A DNA stretch of 64,000 bases from Naegleria gruberi (lineage: Eukaryota): NCBI GenBank assembly GCA_000004985.1, contig GG738861.1; one strand, 5' to 3'. Made by a program: the position numbers and the translations under genes. This document shows positions 9,472 to 17,589 of this stretch, in pieces; position 1 is the first letter of the stretch; every line of letters begins with the position of its first letter. Under the pieces are notes generated by a model that was not told the origin of the DNA, made no database searches, and saw only the letters and a list, made by a program, of their open reading frames with translations.

Positions 9472-10008
9472 TTAATCATTTCTATCCATATCCTTTTCAA
9501 CTCTTCCTCTTTGCATTTCCAAGAACTTTTTGACTCTTTCGTCATTCTTTGTTTTTTCTTGCCAATACAAATTATAGTTACTGGCATTACCAAGTTCAAC
9601 TTGTTGCATATTCTTGGCCAAATCAACTTCTTCTTGACTTTGTGAAGATTGCCAATTATCCATGTAGGATTTAGTTTCAGGCATTTTAGAAACAATCCAC
9701 TCCTTGATAGCTGGTTGGGAAATGGCAAAAACAACTCCGAAAGGATACAACAAATACCAACCAAACTTGAAAGCTTCACGGCCAAATCTATATTTAATAG
9801 GAGGAATGTGGGAAAGAAGTTTTTGGAAGGAATTTTGTTTTACAGCACGGGTCGGAATTTCACCTAATTTTTGTTTTTCGTCAATGGATTTTTGTATAGA
9901 TTGTTTGTGGAATGTACTATATAAAGTTGGAATATCACCATTTGCACTGTGTTCACGAAGAGGTGTAAATGAAGATGATGATGGTTTGCTGGATGATGAT
10001 TCAGTCAT
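9472..10008 (-). CDS. Hypothetical single-pass membrane protein (about 178 aa from the ATG at 10008)
   Basis: The first real ATG gives 'MTESSSSKPSSSS...'. There is one hydrophobic helix, 'FGWYLLYPFGVVFAISQPAI', and a charged C-terminal tail. The ORF-track start at 10062 is not an ATG. Confidence 0.35.
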   Translation of the reverse strand: MTESSSSKPSSSSFTPLREHSANGDIPTLYSTFHKQSIQKSIDEKQKLGEIPTRAVKQNSFQKLLSHIPPIKYRFGREAFKFGWYLLYPFGVVFAISQPAIKEWIVSKMPETKSYMDNWQSSQSQEEVDLAKNMQQVELGNASNYNLYWQEKTKNDERVKKFLEMQRGRVEKDMDRND

Positions 10009-10555
10009 TTTTTTAATTTGGATAAAATGTGTTTGGAGGACAATTTTGAAACAATTCGCCACCTTCTTAGACTTTTTTCAGCTTCTCAATAATATCAACC
10101 ATAAGAAATACAATTGATTTTCAATTCATAACTCAGTGATTACTTTTCATGGTCACATTGGCTCGGCCCGAAGCAACTGATACTCCGTTCAAAAATTTCA
10201 AAGATTCAAAATTTTATTATTTTTTCAAAAAATGTTCAACCCACAAACATAAGCAAGGAATATTCTCCAATGCTTTTCAGCATTGCATTCCTTCCAATAA
10301 ACTTAGACATTTACAATTATTCACACCTCTCTTGCTGCCCATCTCTGAAAAAGAAGGTCATGTCTTTGATAGTGTGACATAGTGTCGAGAGCAGGCTTTG
10401 CTACCCCTCACGTAATGAGAGGAACGCGTTATAATGCATCCAACATCTCACTTTTTTACAATCAACAAAGTAATTAATAAAATTCTATCGTTTTCAGATT
10501 GGAAGAACATCCACTTGTTGATGGAAGTTTTTAACCCGCCAATAAGCAGAAAAAA

Positions 10556-13500
10556 ATGTCTCAAAATCCTCTTCTTTCTGCTCCGATGAAGAAGGAAAAT
10601 CAAAGTGATTTAAATTCGTTGAAGAGTTGTAATTTAATATTGTTGATTGGGAGAAGATGTTCGAATAAGACACTTTGTTATCAGAGGAATTTTTCAGCGA
10701 GCCATGAGAGGATTTCTCTCGAGGAGTGGAAGAAGGATAATTTATCTATTCATGCTACATTTAAAAAGATTATTAAAAAGTTGGAAAAGGTATAGTATTT
10801 GTGGCGGAATTCTATTAGAAAGTTTAAAGAAAAACGTAGTTATTGATGACACTAATTTGGTGAAAGAAACTAGGAAATCTCTAATTGACAAAATCAAACA
10901 AAGTATTCCTTCATGCACAGTTGGGGCACTCTACTTTAATTGTGAAAATCCAAAATTATTAGAGTTTCAATTTTACATGAATCAAACAATGAGCTTTTTT
11001 GTGGATAGATATTGCTCAAATTCATCTTCTATTCCTCTAACTCTTACTACTGATGGACCATTTCAAACATCAAACATTTTGGATGATGAGAAGAAATCAA
11101 TAGTACCAACTAAGGATGAAGGGTTTGATACAATTATTGAACAACCTGTAAAATTAACTATACTGAACAGGGATAGAATTGAATTTAATCATCAGGGACT
11201 AATTGTGGATGGGTTAATATTTGTTCATTCAATGCTCGTCGATTCGGATACAGATTCTGGACCTCTGTCCCATGTTCATTGGATTTTTACTCAATGGATG
11301 AAAATCAAACCTAACGGTAGAATAATTGTAATTCTTATCGAGAAAGACTTTGATAGGCTGTGTGATTCCCTCAAATCTAAGAAAACATTCGAACAATTTC
11401 AAACCTGGTTATCAAAGACATGTTGTAAATACTTTCCATTCCCAATTTATACTGTACAGATTAGTAACTCTAATTTCTCTCAACTCAAAAGAGATGAAAC
11501 ACTATTATTTTCTACCTTATTTTACTATCAATCACTGGCTGCTTCGGAATCACTAGTTCTGACCTCTCCATTTATATCACAAAGTTTAGCCCAACTCAGT
11601 GGTGCCAATACAACTGCCTCCACAAGACACAAGAAATTTTTCAAGCAAGAATGTAACCTAGATGATTCGTGTATTTACTTTAACAGCGATTTGTACTTTA
11701 AAATGTCTAAAATAGGACTTTTGCTGTTGGATTTTTCAAGTATTTCAGAAATATCAATAGCAGAAATTAACAGCATTCAAATGGAACAAAAATTTGCACT
11801 TTGTCAATTAGATTATAGAACTAATCAGCCATCCTATTTTAAACAAATTGAATTTGTTCAACTTAACGATTGGAAACCAGATGGTAAATCTATTTCAAAA
11901 TTTATAGGAAGATTTCCACTTGTTCAAGAATTAACTGTAAATCACACAAATAATTTCAGTATTGGTATTTTTAAGGATATTCAAAAGAAGGAAATCAAAT
12001 CAATACTCTTTGGCGTCATATTAGACACTCACCATATCAAACAATTCTCTTCTCAAAATGATTTCAACAACTTTGTACAATACTATGAACGAATTAATGA
12101 GTATAGTGTATCTAATCAAATGAACAACGCAATAGAAACCATGAATAATGAAAGAAAGAGATTTTCACCAAAGCAAACTTCTAGGTTATCAAAGGGTCTT
12201 GAGGTTGGAACTAATAGCCCAAGCTCTTCGAAATCTCAAGCTTCTGCTCCTGTAACAACGTCTGATGGAAAAACCTCAGATATTTATCAATTTCCGGTAA
12301 CAGATATGAGTATTTCTTCAATTTGTGACTACTTTGGATTACTGACATTCCAGAAAGGAAGGGACATGGAAACCCAAATTTATGATGTAATGGTAAAACT
12401 CATTCCAGAAAAACCAAATCATTTTAAATTATATGCCAAGTGTTCCAGCGCAACTGAGAAGGATACTTTTTACAGAGAGGAGATCCTTATGAAACAAGGT
12501 AAAATTGTTAAAGGAATTTGTACATGCCCTATTGGAAGCCAAGGAAAATGTAAACATGTTTGTGCCAGTATATTATCCTATGTGTCCATTATTTCTAACA
12601 GGAATATGGGAAATGAGCAGAAAATTGAGGAAAAGGAAAAGATTCTAAAATCTGGATCACTTGGCTCTCAATCAGAAAGTCAACTCAGTGAATCCAAAGT
12701 CATATCCCAAGATCCTCCACCAGTCTCATTTGCTGTAAAGCCAGAATCATCTGTAGAGCCATCTCAAGAACCAAAAAAGAAGAAAACTCTACCAAGTTGG
12801 ATGGGTGGCTCAAAAGAAAAGCCACAAAAGTCTTCCTCCACCAAGTCTGATTCAAAATCGGATCTCAAAAAACCAAAAACTAGTTTCTTTTTGTATTGTG
12901 ATGAGTATAGAGATGCAGTTAAGGAAGAGTTGGGAGGAAAGGTTGCTGCTTCTGAAGTGGCAAAAGAATTAGGAGCCAGGTGGAAGCAATTATCAGAAGA
13001 GGAAAAACAAGTTTATGTTGACAAGCACAAGGAATTAGCCAATGAATACGCCGAGAAGAAGAAGGAAATTAAATCCAAAAACAAAACAGATTCAGAGTCT
13101 ACGAGCACGAATGAAAAACCAAAAACAAACAAAAAGAAAGTGAAAAAGGAATCTGTGGATAATGATCCAATAGAAGAGAGTGATGAAGAGGAAGACGAAT
13201 CATTTGGAAATATATTCTTCTCAAAACAAAAACAAAAATCCTCTGAAGCCAAGCAAGAATCCAAGGATAGCTCCATAAGGCCAATTCCAGAAATGTCACC
13301 AGAGAATGTCACCAAATCAAAACCACAACCTGCAACAATTGTGAAGAAGGAACAACGCAGTGATGACGAAGATGAAGCATTTGGAAATATTTTCTTTTCA
13401 AAACCGTCATCTAAACCTTCAGTTGTCACAACCAGTGAAAAACCAGTTCTCAATTCTGTACCTAGTGTCATCATAAAGCAAGAACCTCAGAGCCCTAAAA

Positions 13501-14264
13501 AGAGAAAGCTCCCCAGTCCTGTTAAGCCAACAGTTCAGAAACAAAATGAAGAGGATGAATCCTCTGATGAGGATGTTGGCAGTATATTCTTTGCAACATC
13601 AAAGAAAAAGAAACCAAATAACTTGGAAGAAACTAATGTAAAACCTGTTAAACCTGTTTTGCAAAGTAATACAGTTGAAGAGAGAAAACCTATCCATGAA
13701 ACAAAACAAGCAATGGATGAAAGCGATGATGAAGATGCAAGCAGCATTTTCTTTTCCTCCTCTAAAAAGAAACCAAATGTCGAAACGAAGAAAGAACAGT
13801 TAATTACGCCCATTAGCTCAACAACAGAAAAAAAAGATTCAAATCTGGGTAAAGATCGAATGGAAGAAAGTGATGATGACGAAGAAGGTGGTATTGCAAA
13901 TATCTTCTTCTCCAAGCAAACAAAGAAGAAACCATCCTCTCCAATTATTACAAAACAATCAACTGTTTCGAATACTAGTGCACTTTCGAGTAATATTTCT
14001 TCAACAAGTAAGCCAACACTAGCTCCAAACAATAAGAAAGATATGGATGAAACAGATGACGATGAGGAAGATGTTAGTTTTGCCAATATTTTCTTCTCCA
14101 AATCTACAAAGAAACAACCTCCTCCAGCTTCATCATCTACAAACTCATCTACTTCATCAGTTCCAAAACCTTCATCTTCCTCTCCATCCAAAACTAATAA
14201 TCAGGAGAAGAACACAAAGAAAGTGACATCCCTTAAAGCTATGATGGCAGAATTTGATTTTTAA
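10556..14264 (+). CDS. Multidomain nuclear protein with a polynucleotide-kinase-like P-loop kinase domain, a SWIM zinc finger, an HMG box, and six acidic 'SDDE-FGNIFFSK-K-rich' repeats; two exons
   Basis: Exon 1 is 10556..10789, with a real ATG. The intron is 10790..10829 (40 nt, GTATAG...AAAG), in phase 0. Exon 2 is 10830..14264. Splicing yields '...LILLIGRRCSNKTLCYQ...RISLEEWKK...ATFKKIIKKLEKKNVVIDDTNLVKETRKSLIDKIKQSIPSCTVGALYFNCENPKLLEF'. This is collinear with the PNKP kinase domain: Walker A 'GxxGSGKST', then '...VAIDNTN...AGVPCRCF'. The SWIM finger is 'CTCPIGSQGKCKHVCASI'. The HMG box is 'KKPKTSFFLYCDEYRDAV...ARWKQLSEEEKQVYVDKHKELANEY'. The repeats are spaced roughly 55-60 aa apart. Confidence 0.7.
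13180..14110 (+). repeat. Six tandem, degenerate coding repeats (about 165-180 nt each), each encoding [acidic S/D/E patch]-F/V/I-G/A-N/S-I-F-F-[S/A]-K-[K-rich]
   Basis: The protein-level copies are 'EESDEEEDESFGNIFFSKQKQK', 'RSDDEDEAFGNIFFSKPSSK', 'SSDEDVGSIFFATSKKKK', 'DESDDEDASSIFFSSSKKK', 'ESDDDEEGGIANIFFSKQTKKK' and 'ETDDDEEDVSFANIFFSKSTKK', all inside the 10556..14264 gene. Confidence 0.8.
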
Positions 14265-14365: not shown

Positions 14366-15217
14366 ATGATTGGTTGTAAGATTAATGATCCGAGTTTGAT
14401 TTCCAAAGTAATAGAATTGATGAGTCACTTTACAGATTTGGTCAACTTTGAAGTATCCTCCTCAAGTCTATTCATTCATGCTGTGGATAATTATAAGGTT
14501 GTTCTCTTTGAATTTAGATTATTGGAAAATCAAGCCTTCGTATTTGTTAATCAGGATCAAACTAGAAGAATTAAACTACCCAACTTTGAGAAGCACTATG
14601 GAATTAATTTGAAAATATTTTCCCAAGTAACAAAAGGCTTGAAATCCGATGATAGTTTGTATATTCAATTTCCATCCAATGACGAAGCCTCAGACATACT
14701 ACTCCACATCAAGAAGAAGAATCCACTCAGAAAGTTTACCTATCAACTCTCACAATTCGAAATATGTGATAATGAAAGTTATGAAATTAATGATTTTGAC
14801 CAACAAGCAAGAGTGGAAATATTAATGAATACTCAAAACTTTTCTCAAATGATTCAAGACTTGCACCACTTGAATGGTAATCGATTCAGATTAGAAGTAG
14901 AGAAGAGGGATGATTTTGTACTAACTCTCAAAACTTGGAATGAATTCATCAAGGCAAGTATTGATATTTCCAATGGTGAAGAAAATGTTTCCATTAGTAT
15001 AAGTGAGAGGGAAGAAGAATTTGTTAATATTGGTAATGAATATCCATTCAAAATACTATCAGTTATTTCTCGTGCAAGTAAGATTTCAGATCAGGTATTG
15101 TTTCAAGTTTGTGAGAATGGTCCTCTTGGAATATTATATGGATTAGAGGGAGGTAGTTTCCAATTCTTTGTGGCTCCATTCATTCCAAATGATGATTCCG
15201 AAGATGTTGATGATTAA
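14366..15217 (+). CDS. HUS1: HUS1-like checkpoint clamp subunit (PCNA-fold, 9-1-1 complex), 283 aa
   Basis: The start 'MIGCKINDPSLISKVIELMSHFTDLVNFEVSSSSLFI' parallels HUS1 'MKFRAKIVD..L.HF.RI...IAKL.K.C.LRISPDKLNFIL'. The C-terminus 'GGSFQFFVAPFIPNDDSEDVDD' matches the HUS1/PCNA ends '...LQYFIPAL' and 'YYLAPKIEDEEGS'. The length is right for a PCNA-fold clamp subunit. Confidence 0.6.
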   Translation: MIGCKINDPSLISKVIELMSHFTDLVNFEVSSSSLFIHAVDNYKVVLFEFRLLENQAFVFVNQDQTRRIKLPNFEKHYGINLKIFSQVTKGLKSDDSLYIQFPSNDEASDILLHIKKKNPLRKFTYQLSQFEICDNESYEINDFDQQARVEILMNTQNFSQMIQDLHHLNGNRFRLEVEKRDDFVLTLKTWNEFIKASIDISNGEENVSISISEREEEFVNIGNEYPFKILSVISRASKISDQVLFQVCENGPLGILYGLEGGSFQFFVAPFIPNDDSEDVDD

Positions 15218-15309: not shown

Positions 15310-16020
15310 TCAGTATTGATCTACCTCAGTATCAGGAAGGACTGTATAAACAACTTCTCCAGATTGGTCTTTGGTGAAAGTAATAAACTCTAGTTTTTCA
15401 CTTGATAAACTAGTACTATCCATTGTCTTTGTCATGACCTTGACAGCCAACTTTTTAGCAGCACCAATCTTCAAATCCTCCTTCCATTCTTGTTTCAAGA
15501 TTGATTGAGCAGCTTGATTATTAGCTCCGATTGCTGTAGCTTTCCATCCACCATAATTTCCTGAAGGATCAGAATGATACAATTGATATCCATATTGTTT
15601 ATCCCAACCAGCATACAAGAAACTGACGCCAAATGGTCTCATACCACCAAATTGTGTGTAACTTTGCTTTGAATCACAGAGAGTTTTTACAAGTTGTTCT
15701 ACTGGTATTGGTTCTTGATACATGAATTGATAACGTTGAGCGTGGAGACGAGCAGAGTTAATCAAAATGTTGGCATCAGCTGTAATACCAGCAACAGCAC
15801 ATCCAATATGTTTATCTAATTTGTACATCTTTTCTGTTTTCTTTTCATTATCGAGAAGCTTGGAAGTAATTTTCTTTTCAGCAGCTAATACAATACCATC
15901 GGTGGCAATAATACCGAGAGCAGCACCAGCATGGCTGATAGCTTCCATAGCATATTCGACTTGATACAATCGTCCTTCAGGTGAAAATGTTGTAGTTCTA
16001 TTGTCGTATCTTCTACTCAT
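15310..16020 (-). CDS. PSMA4: 20S proteasome subunit alpha type-4 (alpha3 / Pre9)
   Basis: The N-terminus '[32 protein letters not shown]' is near-identical to PSMA4 '[32 protein letters not shown]'. Further matches include '[10 protein letters not shown]', '[13 protein letters not shown]' and '[15 protein letters not shown]'. Confidence 0.93.
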
Positions 16021-16761: not shown

Positions 16762-17589
16762 TTATTCAGAGGTTTGCATTGCTGTGCTAATAGTTTCTTC
16801 AACAACCAACTTTGATTTCAATTCAAGAACCTTTTGGTTCAAAATAGCAGTCGTACCACGAGGAATAACATATTCACGACGATACTTTCTTCCAGAAGGT
16901 ACGTCATAACCACGAATATAGTTAGCTACACCTTCCTTATTAATGACACATAAATCTACATTTGAACCAGAACCCAAATCATTGTAAATACCAGCAGAAA
17001 TAGCCTTGTGAACAATAGCTTTAGCTTCTTCTTCAGACATATCATCCTTATATTCAGCTTCAAAAACTGACATGGCAGCCAATGATCCTGAACCCATAGT
17101 AACGAATGGTAATTTATCAGTAGAACCATGAGGATAGATTGTATAAAGAGAAGGTCCATTAACATCAACACCACCCAAAACCAAAGCAGCACTAACATGT
17201 CCTTGATATTTCCATAACATACGTTTAAACATTGTCATTGATGTATCAACACGTGATTGTTTACCTGTGGCATAACGATGGAGTTGTAATTTAGAACTGA
17301 TCAATGCAGTGGAATTTTCAGTATCGGCAGCAGTACCAGCACCACAACAATAAATGTTTGGAGCAATGTAGTGAATCTTTTCGCAATTCTTATCAGCGAC
17401 AATAGGACCTTCAGTAGCTCTTGTATCAGCTCCCAAAACAACACCATCCTTGTAAACTACACCACAAATTGTTGTACCAGTCTTGAGTACTTTTGGTGGT
17501 GTTACATTAAGATTTGATTGAAGATAAATGTTACGGGCAACATTATCAAATTCAAAGCCTCCAATTGTTGATGACATGTTTATATACAA
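16762..17589 (-). CDS. PSMB7: 20S proteasome subunit beta type-7 (beta2 / Pup1) with propeptide
   Basis: '[53 protein letters not shown]' matches PSMB7 '[53 protein letters not shown]'. The catalytic Thr follows an about 40-aa propeptide. Confidence 0.93.

What the first reader, a model, noticed from the sequence alone, without database searches (positions are those of the whole stretch)
13180..14110. Six copies of an acidic-patch plus 'FGNIFFSK' plus lysine-run motif, reminiscent of histone-chaperone or repair-factor short linear motifs
Each copy has a casein-kinase-2-like acidic Ser/Asp/Glu cluster, then an invariant hydrophobic/aromatic core (I-F-F), then a K-rich stretch. Acidic-plus-aromatic 'cap/anchor' motifs are the recognised way that histone chaperones (FACT, ANP32E, Chz1, Swr1/YL1) bind H2A-H2B. 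CK2-phosphorylated acidic clusters are also the ligands of FHA domains in XRCC1/XRCC4 and PNKP/APLF systems. Here the motif is multimerised six times on an HMG-box, PNK-like protein. The repeat logic, kinase module plus its own docking-type motifs, looks like a previously undescribed arrangement.
Basis: inference. Interest (0 to 1): 0.7.

Follow-up and report, generated by a model that had tools for sequence, protein, structure and literature searches.

The report
Conserved repeated FF docking motif
The six repeats are real copies of an old, selection-maintained short docking peptide (acidic patch, hydrophobic-x-x-Ile-Phe-Phe, lysine run) in the disordered tail of an uncharacterised Naegleria DNA-repair-type scaffold protein. 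They look most like the FF-based "RIR/PIP-like" partner-recruiting peptides of XRCC1 and translesion polymerases, and less like histone-chaperone or FHA ligands.

Summary
The window is Naegleria gruberi DNA. One gene (10556-14264, + strand, with a 40-nt intron) encodes a 1222-aa protein. Its 402-aa disordered tail holds six copies of acidic cluster, [NS]-I-F-F-[SA] and a K-run. None of 200,000 shuffles of the tail reached six IFF.

The copies are only 60-78% identical as DNA and use all Ile and Phe codons, so selection acts on the peptide.

The motif is older than Naegleria. Eleven relatives carry 29 copies of acidic - Φ-[ED]-[DNS]-[ILV]-F-F-[SG] - basic. They include a second N. gruberi paralogue, N. 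lovaniensis, Willaertia and Acrasis.

The family shares:
- a SWIM finger
- an HMG box or an OB fold
- a conserved C-terminal KK[VI]SLKxL

HMG-type members also carry [KR]xxPxWM, which fits the core of the APLF-type Ku-binding motif.

The histone-chaperone and FHA readings are not supported. The Ser/Thr is not conserved, only one copy in six has Thr, and the basic flank is conserved.

The best fit is an FF docking peptide of the RIR/PIP-like class (compare XRCC1 LFFSR, Pol iota SFFSKK). RIR membership holds for only 15-18 of 29 copies, and the partner is unknown.

I rate it a new variant of a known kind, of moderate interest.

The parts
10556..10789 (+). Exon 1 of the gene. It begins at the ATG and includes a degenerate Walker A / P-loop, LILLIGRRCSNKT (nt 10634-10672).
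   Evidence: I built the splice model. It matches the N. lovaniensis model P0002 (..KKLEKQCKIVIDDENL). The NCBI model of the N. gruberi gene (P0001) starts 131 aa later and lacks this part.
10790..10829 (+). A 40-nt GT..AG intron.
   Evidence: removing it joins frame 2 to frame 0 and gives ..KKLEK|KNVVIDD, as in the orthologue.
10830..14264 (+). Exon 2, ending with the TAA stop. Together the two exons encode 1222 aa.
   Evidence: 100% identical to 'predicted protein [Naegleria gruberi]'.
10625..11585 (+). PNK-like P-loop kinase domain followed by a HAD-like alpha/beta domain, in the same order as T4 Pnk. Limits are approximate and span the intron.
12321..12584 (+). SWIM-type zinc-finger domain (core CTCPIGSQGKCKHVCA, 12519-12566). 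It is the most conserved part of the family.
   Evidence: Invariant C..C..C.H columns in alignments A1 and A4. Pfam SWIM is sub-threshold (E 0.017). AlphaFold2 pLDDT is about 90.
12774..12803 (+). KKKKTLPSWM, a candidate APLF-type Ku-binding motif.
   Evidence: [KR]xxPxW[MLF] is found 52-101 aa after the SWIM finger in five HMG-type and related members, with a near-variant (KAKLPGWM) in a sixth, and in none of about 138 other HMG proteins retrieved. The core KBM is R-x-x-P-x-W (PMC4831024).
12867..13070 (+). HMG box.
   Evidence: Pfam PF00505 E 2.3e-13. AlphaFold2 pLDDT 85-93 with three helices.
13170..13238 (+). Motif copy 1: IEESDEEEDESFGNIFFSKQKQK.
13356..13415 (+). Motif copy 2: RSDDEDEAFGNIFFSKPSSK. 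It aligns with N. lovaniensis copy 1.
13548..13613 (+). Motif copy 3: EEDESSDEDVGSIFFATSKKKK.
13716..13772 (+). Motif copy 4: DESDDEDASSIFFSSSKKK.
13863..13931 (+). Motif copy 5: EESDDDEEGGIANIFFSKQTKKK. It has no counterpart in N. lovaniensis.
14046..14114 (+). Motif copy 6: DETDDDEEDVSFANIFFSKSTKK. It aligns with the last N. lovaniensis copy.
14217..14261 (+). Conserved C-terminal motif KKVTSLKAMMAEFDF (family consensus KK[VI]SLKxL[LIM]).
   Evidence: It is present at the C-terminus of family members. It is the only tail segment predicted helical (pLDDT 52-59).

Best explanation
The six repeats are copies of a short linear docking motif kept by selection on the peptide. Its core is Φ-x-x-[I/L]-F-F-[S/G], with an acidic N-terminal flank and a basic C-terminal flank.

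The motif is a hallmark of an uncharacterised protein family. Every member with a named source is a heterolobosean. The family is built from a PNK-like kinase, a HAD-like domain, a SWIM finger, a DNA-binding module (HMG box or OB fold), a disordered tail and a C-terminal KK[VI]SLKxL motif. HMG-type members also carry a Ku-binding-motif-like LPxWM.

I infer that each copy works like the FF-centred RIR/PIP-like peptides of genome-maintenance proteins. The two Phe and the preceding I/L would insert into a hydrophobic pocket of a partner, and the charged flanks would steer and strengthen binding.

Six copies on an HMG-box protein would give multivalent, high-avidity recruitment of that partner to DNA. 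The most likely partners are a Rev1 C-terminal-domain-type hub, or a PNK-type catalytic domain as shown for the XRCC1 FF motif.

Shown here: the motif, its conservation and the domain context. Inferred: the docking function and the class of partner.
For: Reality and selection:
- Six IFF in the tail against a maximum of 3 in 200,000 shuffles, and 15 of 17 tail Phe lie in the motifs.
- DNA identity between copies is 60-78%, with synonymous codon variation at the invariant I-F-F.
- The N. gruberi and N. lovaniensis tails are 27% identical overall, with identity concentrated at the motifs. Four of the six copies align position for position with the four N. lovaniensis copies.

Ancient and family-specific:
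- A HMMER search of 1.84 billion representatives found relatives whose only shared tail features are this motif and the C-terminal motif.
- The 29 instances give acid at -10..-6, Φ at -3 (25/29), [ED] at -2, [DNS] at -1, I/L/V at 0, F and F (29/29), S/G at +3, and K/R enriched at +4..+8.
- Members with a named source are an N. gruberi paralogue, Willaertia magna and Acrasis kona.
- Among the 151 retrieved proteins, the 11 that carry the tail motif all have the SWIM finger. Two further hits in other proteins lie in hydrophobic stretches without the charged flanks.

Genome-maintenance context:
- PNKP is the best structural match of the N-terminal module.
- The DNA-binding module is an HMG box or an OB fold.
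- A KBM-like [KR]xxPxWM is present.
- N. gruberi has DNA-PKcs (PMC8021618) and POLI (PMC8595933).

Resemblance to FF docking peptides:
- Verified RIRs are Pol iota VLSFFSKKQ, p66 SNFFGKAA, Pol kappa KSFFDKKR and Pol eta EPFFKQKS (PMC5295019).
- The ELM RIR expression ..FF[^P]{0,2}[KR]{1,2}[^P]{0,4} matches 4 of 6 N. gruberi copies, all 4 N. lovaniensis copies and 13 of 19 HMG-type instances.
- The XRCC1 motif (F173, F191, F192) binds PNKP's catalytic domain, Rev1 and SSRP1. From my memory, checked only against the paper's residue numbers, its local sequence is F173-RVKEEDESANSLRPGA-LFFSRINK: an acidic cluster, then Φ-F-F-S-[KR], like IFFSK here.
Against: - No binding data exist, and no complex could be modelled with these tools.
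- RIR rules are weakly informative here. With 17% K/R and 8% Pro in the tail, about 40% of random FF sites would pass the ELM expression (my arithmetic). Four of six is therefore not significant.
- Across the family only 15 of 29 instances pass the ELM rule and 18 of 29 pass the x-FF-yyyy no-proline rule. In the OB-type paralogues 5 of 6 have Pro within four residues after FF. That fits badly with the helix that RIRs form after FF.
- What is conserved lies upstream of FF (Φ at -3, acid at -2/-1, I at 0), and RIRs do not conserve these positions.
- A canonical PIP box is absent (0 of 29).
- AlphaFold2 of the exon-2 protein leaves all six motifs as low-confidence coil (pLDDT 30-40). It therefore gives no sign of docking onto the protein's own domains. 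That model lacks the P-loop exon and rests on 15 sequences.
- I did not show that Naegleria Rev1 has a C-terminal domain of this type.
Confidence: 0.45

Rival explanations
1. Self-docking or paralogue-docking. The FF motifs bind the PNK-like kinase/HAD module of the same protein (autoregulation), of another copy (oligomerisation), or of the OB-type paralogue with an intact P-loop. This would mirror the way the XRCC1 phenylalanine motif binds and stimulates PNKP.
For: XRCC1's FF motif binds PNKP's catalytic domain and stimulates its turnover. The N-terminal module here is PNKP-like in fold. The motif and the PNK-like module co-occur in every full-length member. HMG-type members have degenerate P-loops and many FF copies, whereas OB-type members have canonical P-loops and one or two copies. 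That pattern would fit a scaffold and enzyme pair.
Against: AlphaFold2 of the exon-2 protein shows no ordering of any FF motif. This is a weak test, because the P-loop exon is missing and the alignment is shallow. The similarity to XRCC1 covers about 5 residues plus an acidic patch. No co-variation could be assessed.
Confidence: 0.15
2. Histone H2A-H2B (or H3-H4) binding 'cap/anchor' or DEF/Y-type motifs, which would make the protein a histone chaperone.
For: Each copy has an acidic run followed by aromatic residues. APLF, another protein with a Ku-binding motif, carries an acidic histone-chaperone domain (titles and abstracts). The XRCC1 FF motif is reported to contact the FACT subunit SSRP1.
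Against: A basic run directly follows the aromatic core in most family instances, and it would repel basic histones. The acidic run is reduced or absent in several family instances, for example P0005 TTTTDFESIFFG and P0056 KKRLSSSMENIFFG, while I-F-F is invariant. Known anchors are single Y/F/W residues embedded in acid on both sides (from my knowledge, not tested).
Confidence: 0.1
3. CK2-phosphorylated acidic clusters act as ligands for FHA/BRCT or PIH-type phosphopeptide readers (as with XRCC1/XRCC4-PNKP, or the MDC1 SDT repeats), and the FF is secondary.
For: All six N. gruberi copies contain [ST]-x-x-[DE] (sequence). Several read [DE]-S-D-D-[DE].
Against: Only one copy has Thr. The phospho-acceptor is mostly missing from the N. 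lovaniensis copies and from many family instances, while I-F-F is invariant. No FHA or BRCT domain was detected in this protein.
Confidence: 0.08
4. A non-specific polyampholyte with aromatic 'stickers'. Blocks of acid, aromatic and base would drive condensation, or fold back on the HMG box and DNA as the HMGB1 acidic tail does, without a dedicated partner pocket. Alternatively they act as ΦxxΦΦ acidic activation motifs of an HMG-box transcription factor.
For: The charge pattern is blocky and all aromatic residues of the tail sit in the repeats. The core fits ΦxxΦΦ. The tail is predicted fully disordered.
Against: Position-specific conservation across very divergent proteins (Φ at -3 in 25/29, I/L/V at 0 in 29/29, FF in 29/29, S/G at +3) is stricter than sticker or activation-domain models require. 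OB-type paralogues keep a single copy, which cannot give multivalency. The PNK-like, SWIM and KBM-like context does not suggest a transcription factor.
Confidence: 0.15

Closest known systems
XRCC1 'phenylalanine motif' containing its Rev1-interacting region (F173, F191, F192)
   Same: An FF pair preceded by a hydrophobic residue and followed by Ser-basic (LFFSR against IFFSK), with an acidic cluster a few residues upstream. It lies in a disordered linker of a DNA-repair scaffold. [quoted passage not shown] The XRCC1 local sequence is from my memory and is consistent with the paper's numbering.
   Different: XRCC1 has a single copy, 17 residues lie between the first Phe and FF, and XRCC1 has no kinase, SWIM or HMG domain. 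Here there are six copies with Φ at -3, on the same chain as a PNK-like module. No homology between the proteins was detected.
RIR motifs of Pol eta, iota, kappa and POLD3 (ELM LIG_REV1ctd_RIR_1)
   Same: They are FF-centred with basic residues after FF. FFSK occurs in Pol iota and FFGK in p66. Most HMG-type instances satisfy the ELM expression.
   Different: RIRs do not conserve the upstream positions and need a proline-free helix after FF. Here the upstream Φ-[ED]-[DN]-I is conserved and Pro often follows FF (11 of 29 fail the no-proline rule).
PIP box (Q-x-x-[ILM]-x-x-[FY]-[FY]) and PIP-like motifs
   Same: A C-terminal aromatic pair with a basic flank, in a genome-maintenance context. Pol kappa's PIP is KHTLDIFFK.
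   Different: No Gln at position 1. The hydrophobic residue sits at -4 and -1 relative to the first Phe, not at -3. Zero of 29 instances match the core and 2 of 29 match even [ILMV]xxFF.
APLF (FHA, Ku-binding motif, PBZ fingers, acidic histone-chaperone tail)
   Same: A disordered scaffold with a basic-LPxWM peptide that fits the core KBM R-x-x-P-x-W, plus acidic tail segments.
   Different: No FHA or PBZ domain. Here there are a PNK-like kinase/HAD module, a SWIM finger and an HMG box. Ku binding is untested.
PNKP / T4 polynucleotide kinase-phosphatase
   Different: The Walker A motif is degenerate in this protein (GRRCSNKT). The HAD motif I DxDxT is replaced by D-G-L or D-A-H. No sequence-level match to PNKP was found. 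Activity is doubtful for the HMG-type paralogue.
NBS1 C-terminal ATM-binding motif (acidic region, FxF/Y, KRRR)
   Same: The same charge layout: an acidic stretch, an aromatic core, then a basic end.
   Different: The NBS1 core is F-x-[FY]. None of the 29 instances has it.

Membership tests
Rev1-interacting region (RIR) | Two adjacent Phe | tested here: met
   FF is present in 29 of 29 family instances, including all six in the window.
Rev1-interacting region (RIR) | No proline in the four residues after FF (x-F-F-y-y-y-y; Ohashi 2009 as quoted in PMC13244153) | tested here: inconclusive
   Five of six window copies pass (copy 2, FFSKP, fails). Across the family 18 of 29 pass, but only 1 of 6 in OB-type paralogues. 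About 72% would pass by composition alone (my arithmetic).
Rev1-interacting region (RIR) | ELM expression ..FF[^P]{0,2}[KR]{1,2}[^P]{0,4} | tested here: inconclusive
   Four of six window copies match, as do 4 of 4 N. lovaniensis copies and 15 of 29 in the family. About 40% is expected from tail composition.
Rev1-interacting region (RIR) | Binds the Rev1 C-terminal four-helix bundle and forms a helix after FF | not testable with these tools
   Only monomer prediction was available. In the monomer model the motifs are coil with pLDDT 30-40.
PIP box | Q-x-x-[ILM]-x-x-[FY]-[FY] | tested here: not met
   Zero of 29 instances match. The relaxed form [ILMV]xxFF matches 2 of 29.
FHA-domain phosphopeptide ligand (XRCC1/XRCC4/MDC1 type) | Conserved phospho-Thr in an acidic CK2 context | tested here: not met
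   Thr occurs in 1 of 6 copies. The acceptor is not conserved in N. lovaniensis or the wider family.
H2A-H2B 'cap/anchor' or DEF/Y histone-binding motif | An aromatic anchor embedded in acidic residues that binds the H2A-H2B DNA-binding surface | not testable with these tools
   An acidic run plus aromatic residues is present, but a conserved basic run follows. No binding test was possible.
Polynucleotide kinase (PNKP / T4 Pnk-like P-loop kinase) | P-loop kinase fold closest to polynucleotide kinases | tested here: met
Polynucleotide kinase (PNKP / T4 Pnk-like P-loop kinase) | Canonical Walker A GxxxxGK[ST] | tested here: not met
   The window protein has GRRCSNKT, with Asn in place of the second Gly. 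OB-type paralogues are mostly canonical: GPPCSGKT and GPPCAGKT fit, GLPFLGKS is canonical, and GPPFSGKR ends in Arg instead of Ser/Thr.
HAD phosphatase (PNKP-phosphatase/GmhB/HisB subfamily) | HAD Rossmann-like fold and the catalytic DxDxT motif | tested here: inconclusive
HMG box | Pfam PF00505 above the gathering score | tested here: met
   50.8 bits against a cut-off of 25.4.
SWIM zinc finger | The CxCxnCxH signature in a beta-beta-alpha context | tested here: met
   CTCPIGSQGKCKHVCA has invariant C, C, C and H across the family. Pfam SWIM is sub-threshold (E 0.017 and 0.0038). The AlphaFold2 model shows strands followed by a helix with pLDDT about 90.
APLF-type Ku-binding motif (KBM) | Core R-x-x-P-x-W after a basic patch (PMC4831024), binding the Ku80 vWA domain | tested here: inconclusive
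   KKKKTLPSWM fits with Lys in place of Arg. The motif sits at the same place in five relatives, with a near-variant in a sixth. The authors note that more than 600 human proteins match the core, and binding is untested.

The most novel reading that the evidence does not exclude
Heterolobosean amoebae, and possibly relatives seen only in metagenomes, have a so far unrecognised DNA-break-repair scaffold family. It would do in one polypeptide what XRCC1/APLF plus PNKP do in animals. It comprises a PNK-type kinase/phosphatase-fold module (probably catalytically dead in the HMG paralogue, possibly kinase-active in the OB paralogue), a Ku tether (LPxWM), a DNA-binding module, and multimerised XRCC1-like FF motifs. 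Those motifs would bind the PNK-type catalytic module (in cis, or of the paralogue) or Rev1, assembling a multivalent end-processing hub.
Probability: 0.15. Interest if true: 0.7.

Novelty: new variant of a known kind. Interest (0 to 1): 0.45.

Why it matters
If the reading is right, the window holds a compact example of how short docking peptides evolve and multiply. One ancestral copy is present in both paralogue types. In the HMG-type lineage it has expanded to four to six copies, with copies gained and lost between Naegleria species.

It also points to an uncharacterised repair-type scaffold in a deep-branching eukaryotic lineage that includes the pathogen N. fowleri's genus. That scaffold combines modules which animals spread over XRCC1, APLF and PNKP.

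The result gives concrete peptides and domains for pulldown experiments. It corrects two gene models. It also shows that the histone-chaperone and FHA readings are not the best fit.

Tried and rejected
1. A word-indexed homologue search with the whole protein returned only the protein itself, and one with a family profile returned only the protein and its orthologue P0002. Low-complexity words filled the candidate cap. The exhaustive HMMER search was what uncovered the family.
2. Sequence profiles on the N-terminal 527 aa (Pfam, PDB) gave nothing significant. The ERCC4 hit at E 0.011 was rejected as sub-threshold and unsupported by fold.
I therefore modelled the orthologue's N-terminus and the exon-2 protein separately.
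4. I tested the following and rejected them for the FF core: canonical PIP box, FFAT, NBS1 FxF/Y and LEDGF IBM (all 0 of 29), and LIR (9 of 29, because the first aromatic residue is not conserved).
5. A functional link to the neighbouring divergent PCNA gene was rejected as unsupported. That gene is not adjacent in N. lovaniensis.
6. I tried to verify the XRCC1 RIR peptide sequence in the PDB and in Gabel et al. 2013. It is not in the PDB sequences and the paper is not held. The sequence is therefore quoted from memory, checked only against the residue numbers.
7. Of the 12 metagenome loci, I read only the three best matches (L003-L005) and used L003 and L004. L006-L014 are weak, partial matches to the SWIM region and were not examined.


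Full report
**What is there**

The window is Naegleria gruberi nuclear DNA. The large + strand ORF 10647..14264 is 100% identical to 'predicted protein [Naegleria gruberi]'. The public model starts too late. An upstream ATG at 10556, a 234-nt first exon and a 40-nt GT..AG intron (10790-10829) restore an N-terminus with a P-loop. This matches the N. lovaniensis annotation (..KKLEKQCKIVIDDENL). The full product is 1222 aa.

The tail after the HMG box is 402 aa, rich in S, K, E, P, T and D. It contains six copies of an acidic cluster, then [NS]-I-F-F-[SA], then a lysine run. The I-F-F codons start at nt 13212, 13389, 13584, 13746, 13902 and 14088. The literal 'FGNIFFSK' occurs in only two copies.

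**Is it more than chance?**

- Shuffling the tail 200,000 times never produced six IFF (maximum 3). Fifteen of the tail's 17 Phe are in the motifs, and the other two are in the C-terminal EFDF.
- The copies are not a recent DNA amplification. Tandem Repeats Finder sees no array. Pairwise DNA identity is 60-78%. The invariant Ile and Phe are spelled with ATA/ATT/ATC and TTC/TTT. Conservation therefore acts on the peptide.
- No other acid-[ILV]FF-basic site occurs in the six-frame translation of the remaining 60 kb, or of the two related loci outside the orthologous gene.

**Orthologues**

N. lovaniensis has the same gene, split by annotation into C9374_012405 and C9374_012406, with an apparent frameshift between them. 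Its tail is only 27% identical overall. It retains four copies ([IV]FFSK) at positions that align with N. gruberi copies 2, 3, 4 and 6. N. gruberi copy 1 aligns with a decayed site there (NIAMLSEPF), and copy 5 has no counterpart.

A third Naegleria species, on a Logan contig, has NIFASK at the first site before the contig ends. This gain, loss and decay of copies in a fast-evolving disordered region, with islands of conservation, is the typical behaviour of short linear motifs.

**A wider family**

The exhaustive HMMER search found many HMG-box proteins. It also found a set of proteins that share the non-HMG parts. Those with a named source are a second N. gruberi protein (XP_002678062.1), Willaertia magna KAL9656276.1 and Acrasis kona KAL0488844.1. 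All three are Heterolobosea. The rest are metagenomic, and two more came from a metagenome scan.

The shared architecture is:
- an N-terminal P-loop domain
- a second alpha/beta domain
- a poorly conserved middle region
- a very well conserved SWIM finger (invariant C, C, C, H)
- a DNA-binding module, either an HMG box or an OB fold (Pfam tRNA_anti-codon E 3e-5)
- a disordered tail
- a conserved C-terminus, KK[VI]SLKxL[LIM]

Every tail examined except one carries one to six copies of the FF motif. The exception, P0018, has a decayed copy (EDEMDNVFKPSSNKKK).

The 29 instances give this consensus:
- acidic residues at -10..-6
- [S/D/T] at -4
- a hydrophobic residue at -3 (25 of 29, mostly Phe)
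- [E/D] at -2
- [D/N/S] at -1
- I/L/V at 0
- F and F (29 of 29)
- S or G at +3
- K/R enriched at +4..+8

Among the 151 proteins retrieved, the 11 that carry the tail motif all have the SWIM finger. The motif is therefore an ancient hallmark of one family. It is not a Naegleria low-complexity quirk and not a general property of HMG proteins. HMG-type members have two to six copies, counting a decayed second copy in P0017 (IFL). OB-type members have one or two.

**The N-terminal module**

Sequence profiles are silent on this region. An AlphaFold2 model of the N. lovaniensis N-terminus, built on a nine-sequence family alignment, is confident in the first domain (pLDDT 75-90).
- Foldseek ranks four mammalian PNKP structures first (E about 1e-4).

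Kinase followed by HAD is the T4 Pnk order.

Catalytic integrity is doubtful in the window's protein. Its Walker A is GRRCSNKT, and HAD motif I lacks the second Asp. OB-type paralogues keep GPPCSGKT-type loops.

**What the motif most likely does**

The strict, position-specific conservation of a six-residue hydrophobic core in otherwise unalignable disorder points to a peptide that docks into a defined pocket. The domain context is that of DNA-end processing and repair: a PNK-like module, a DNA-binding module and a Ku-binding-motif-like peptide. The known docking peptides built around FF in this area are the RIR/PIP-like class.

Verified RIRs are Pol iota VLSFFSKKQ, p66 SNFFGKAA, Pol kappa KSFFDKKR and Pol eta EPFFKQKS.

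The XRCC1 RIR lies in a conserved 'phenylalanine motif' (F173, F191, F192). That motif binds the catalytic domain of PNKP and stimulates it, and it also contacts Rev1 and SSRP1. As I remember the human sequence, it reads F173-RVKEEDESANSLRPGA-L-F191-F192-SRINK. The numbering fits the paper. The layout is an acidic cluster, then Φ-F-F-S-basic, which is the closest look-alike of EEEDESFGN-IFF-SKQKQK.

I therefore propose multivalent FF docking of a genome-maintenance partner onto a DNA-bound scaffold. The charged flanks would provide electrostatic steering, and the acidic flank could be tuned by CK2.

**How far this goes**

Membership in the RIR class is not established.
- The ELM expression matches 4 of 6 window copies and 15 of 29 family instances.
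- The no-proline rule holds for 18 of 29, and for only 1 of 6 in the OB paralogues.
- With 17% K/R and 8% Pro in the tail, about 40% and 72% of random FF sites would pass these rules (my arithmetic). The matches therefore carry little weight.
- The conserved upstream positions are not an RIR feature.
- Zero of 29 instances fit canonical PIP, FFAT, NBS1 FxF/Y or LEDGF IBM patterns.
- AlphaFold2 of the exon-2 protein leaves all six motifs as coil at pLDDT 30-40, so it gives no hint of docking onto the protein's own SWIM, HMG or HAD-like domains. That model lacks the P-loop exon and has a shallow alignment.

The safest statement is this: a new, family-specific FF motif, related in kind to RIR/PIP-like peptides, with an unidentified partner.

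FHA ligands need phospho-Thr. Only copy 6 has Thr, and the acceptor is not conserved in N. lovaniensis or the wider family, while I-F-F is invariant.

Histone 'cap/anchor' binding could not be tested. The conserved lysine run beside the core, and family instances with little acid upstream, argue against it as the primary function.

**Other rivals**

The other rivals are self- or paralogue-docking onto the PNK-like module, and non-specific aromatic 'sticker' or activation-domain behaviour. They remain open and are scored separately.

**Novelty and interest**

No paper or annotation describes this family. The building blocks are known kinds (PNK fold, SWIM, HMG/OB, FF docking peptide, KBM-like peptide). 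The combination and the motif's consensus are new. Everything functional is inferred, so I rate interest as moderate.

Noticed in passing
window 12774-12803: KKKKTLPSWM lies between the SWIM finger and the HMG box. It fits the core APLF-type Ku-binding motif (R-x-x-P-x-W). It sits at the same place in five relatives, with a near-variant in a sixth, and in none of about 138 other HMG proteins retrieved.
   Followed up: partly
window 14217-14261: The protein's last 15 residues (KKVTSLKAMMAEFDF) belong to a family-wide C-terminal motif, KK[VI]SLKxL[LIM]. It is the only tail segment predicted helical. Its partner is unknown.
   Followed up: partly
window 14366-15217 (+): About 100 bp downstream lies a divergent PCNA paralogue. 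It aligns full-length to PCNAs only, at E 1e-8 to 1e-12, far weaker than I would expect for a canonical PCNA (my judgement). The adjacency is not conserved in N. lovaniensis.
   Followed up: partly
window 10556-10829; locus L002 5850-6060: There are gene-model problems. The NCBI N. gruberi model omits exon 1 and the first 131 aa, including the P-loop. The N. lovaniensis orthologue is split into two models, with an apparent frameshift between ..MPNTSHQ and ..TSTIDGKTSD.
   Followed up: yes
P0026 (N. gruberi XP_002678062.1); P0022, P0063; L003, L004: A paralogous branch has an RPA-like OB fold in place of the HMG box. Most members keep a canonical Walker A (P0018 ends GKR). They have one or two FF motifs, often followed by Pro, and no LPxWM. 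P0026 as deposited lacks the kinase N-terminus.
   Followed up: partly
window 15310-16020 (-) and 16762-17589 (-): Two genes lie side by side on the minus strand: a proteasome alpha subunit (Pfam E 6.5e-58) and, judged only from reading its translation, a proteasome beta-type subunit.
   Followed up: no
window 9472-10062 (-): The upstream neighbour, a 196-aa ORF that I did not scan for domains, is conserved next to the orthologous gene in both other Naegleria loci (69-72% identity).
   Followed up: no
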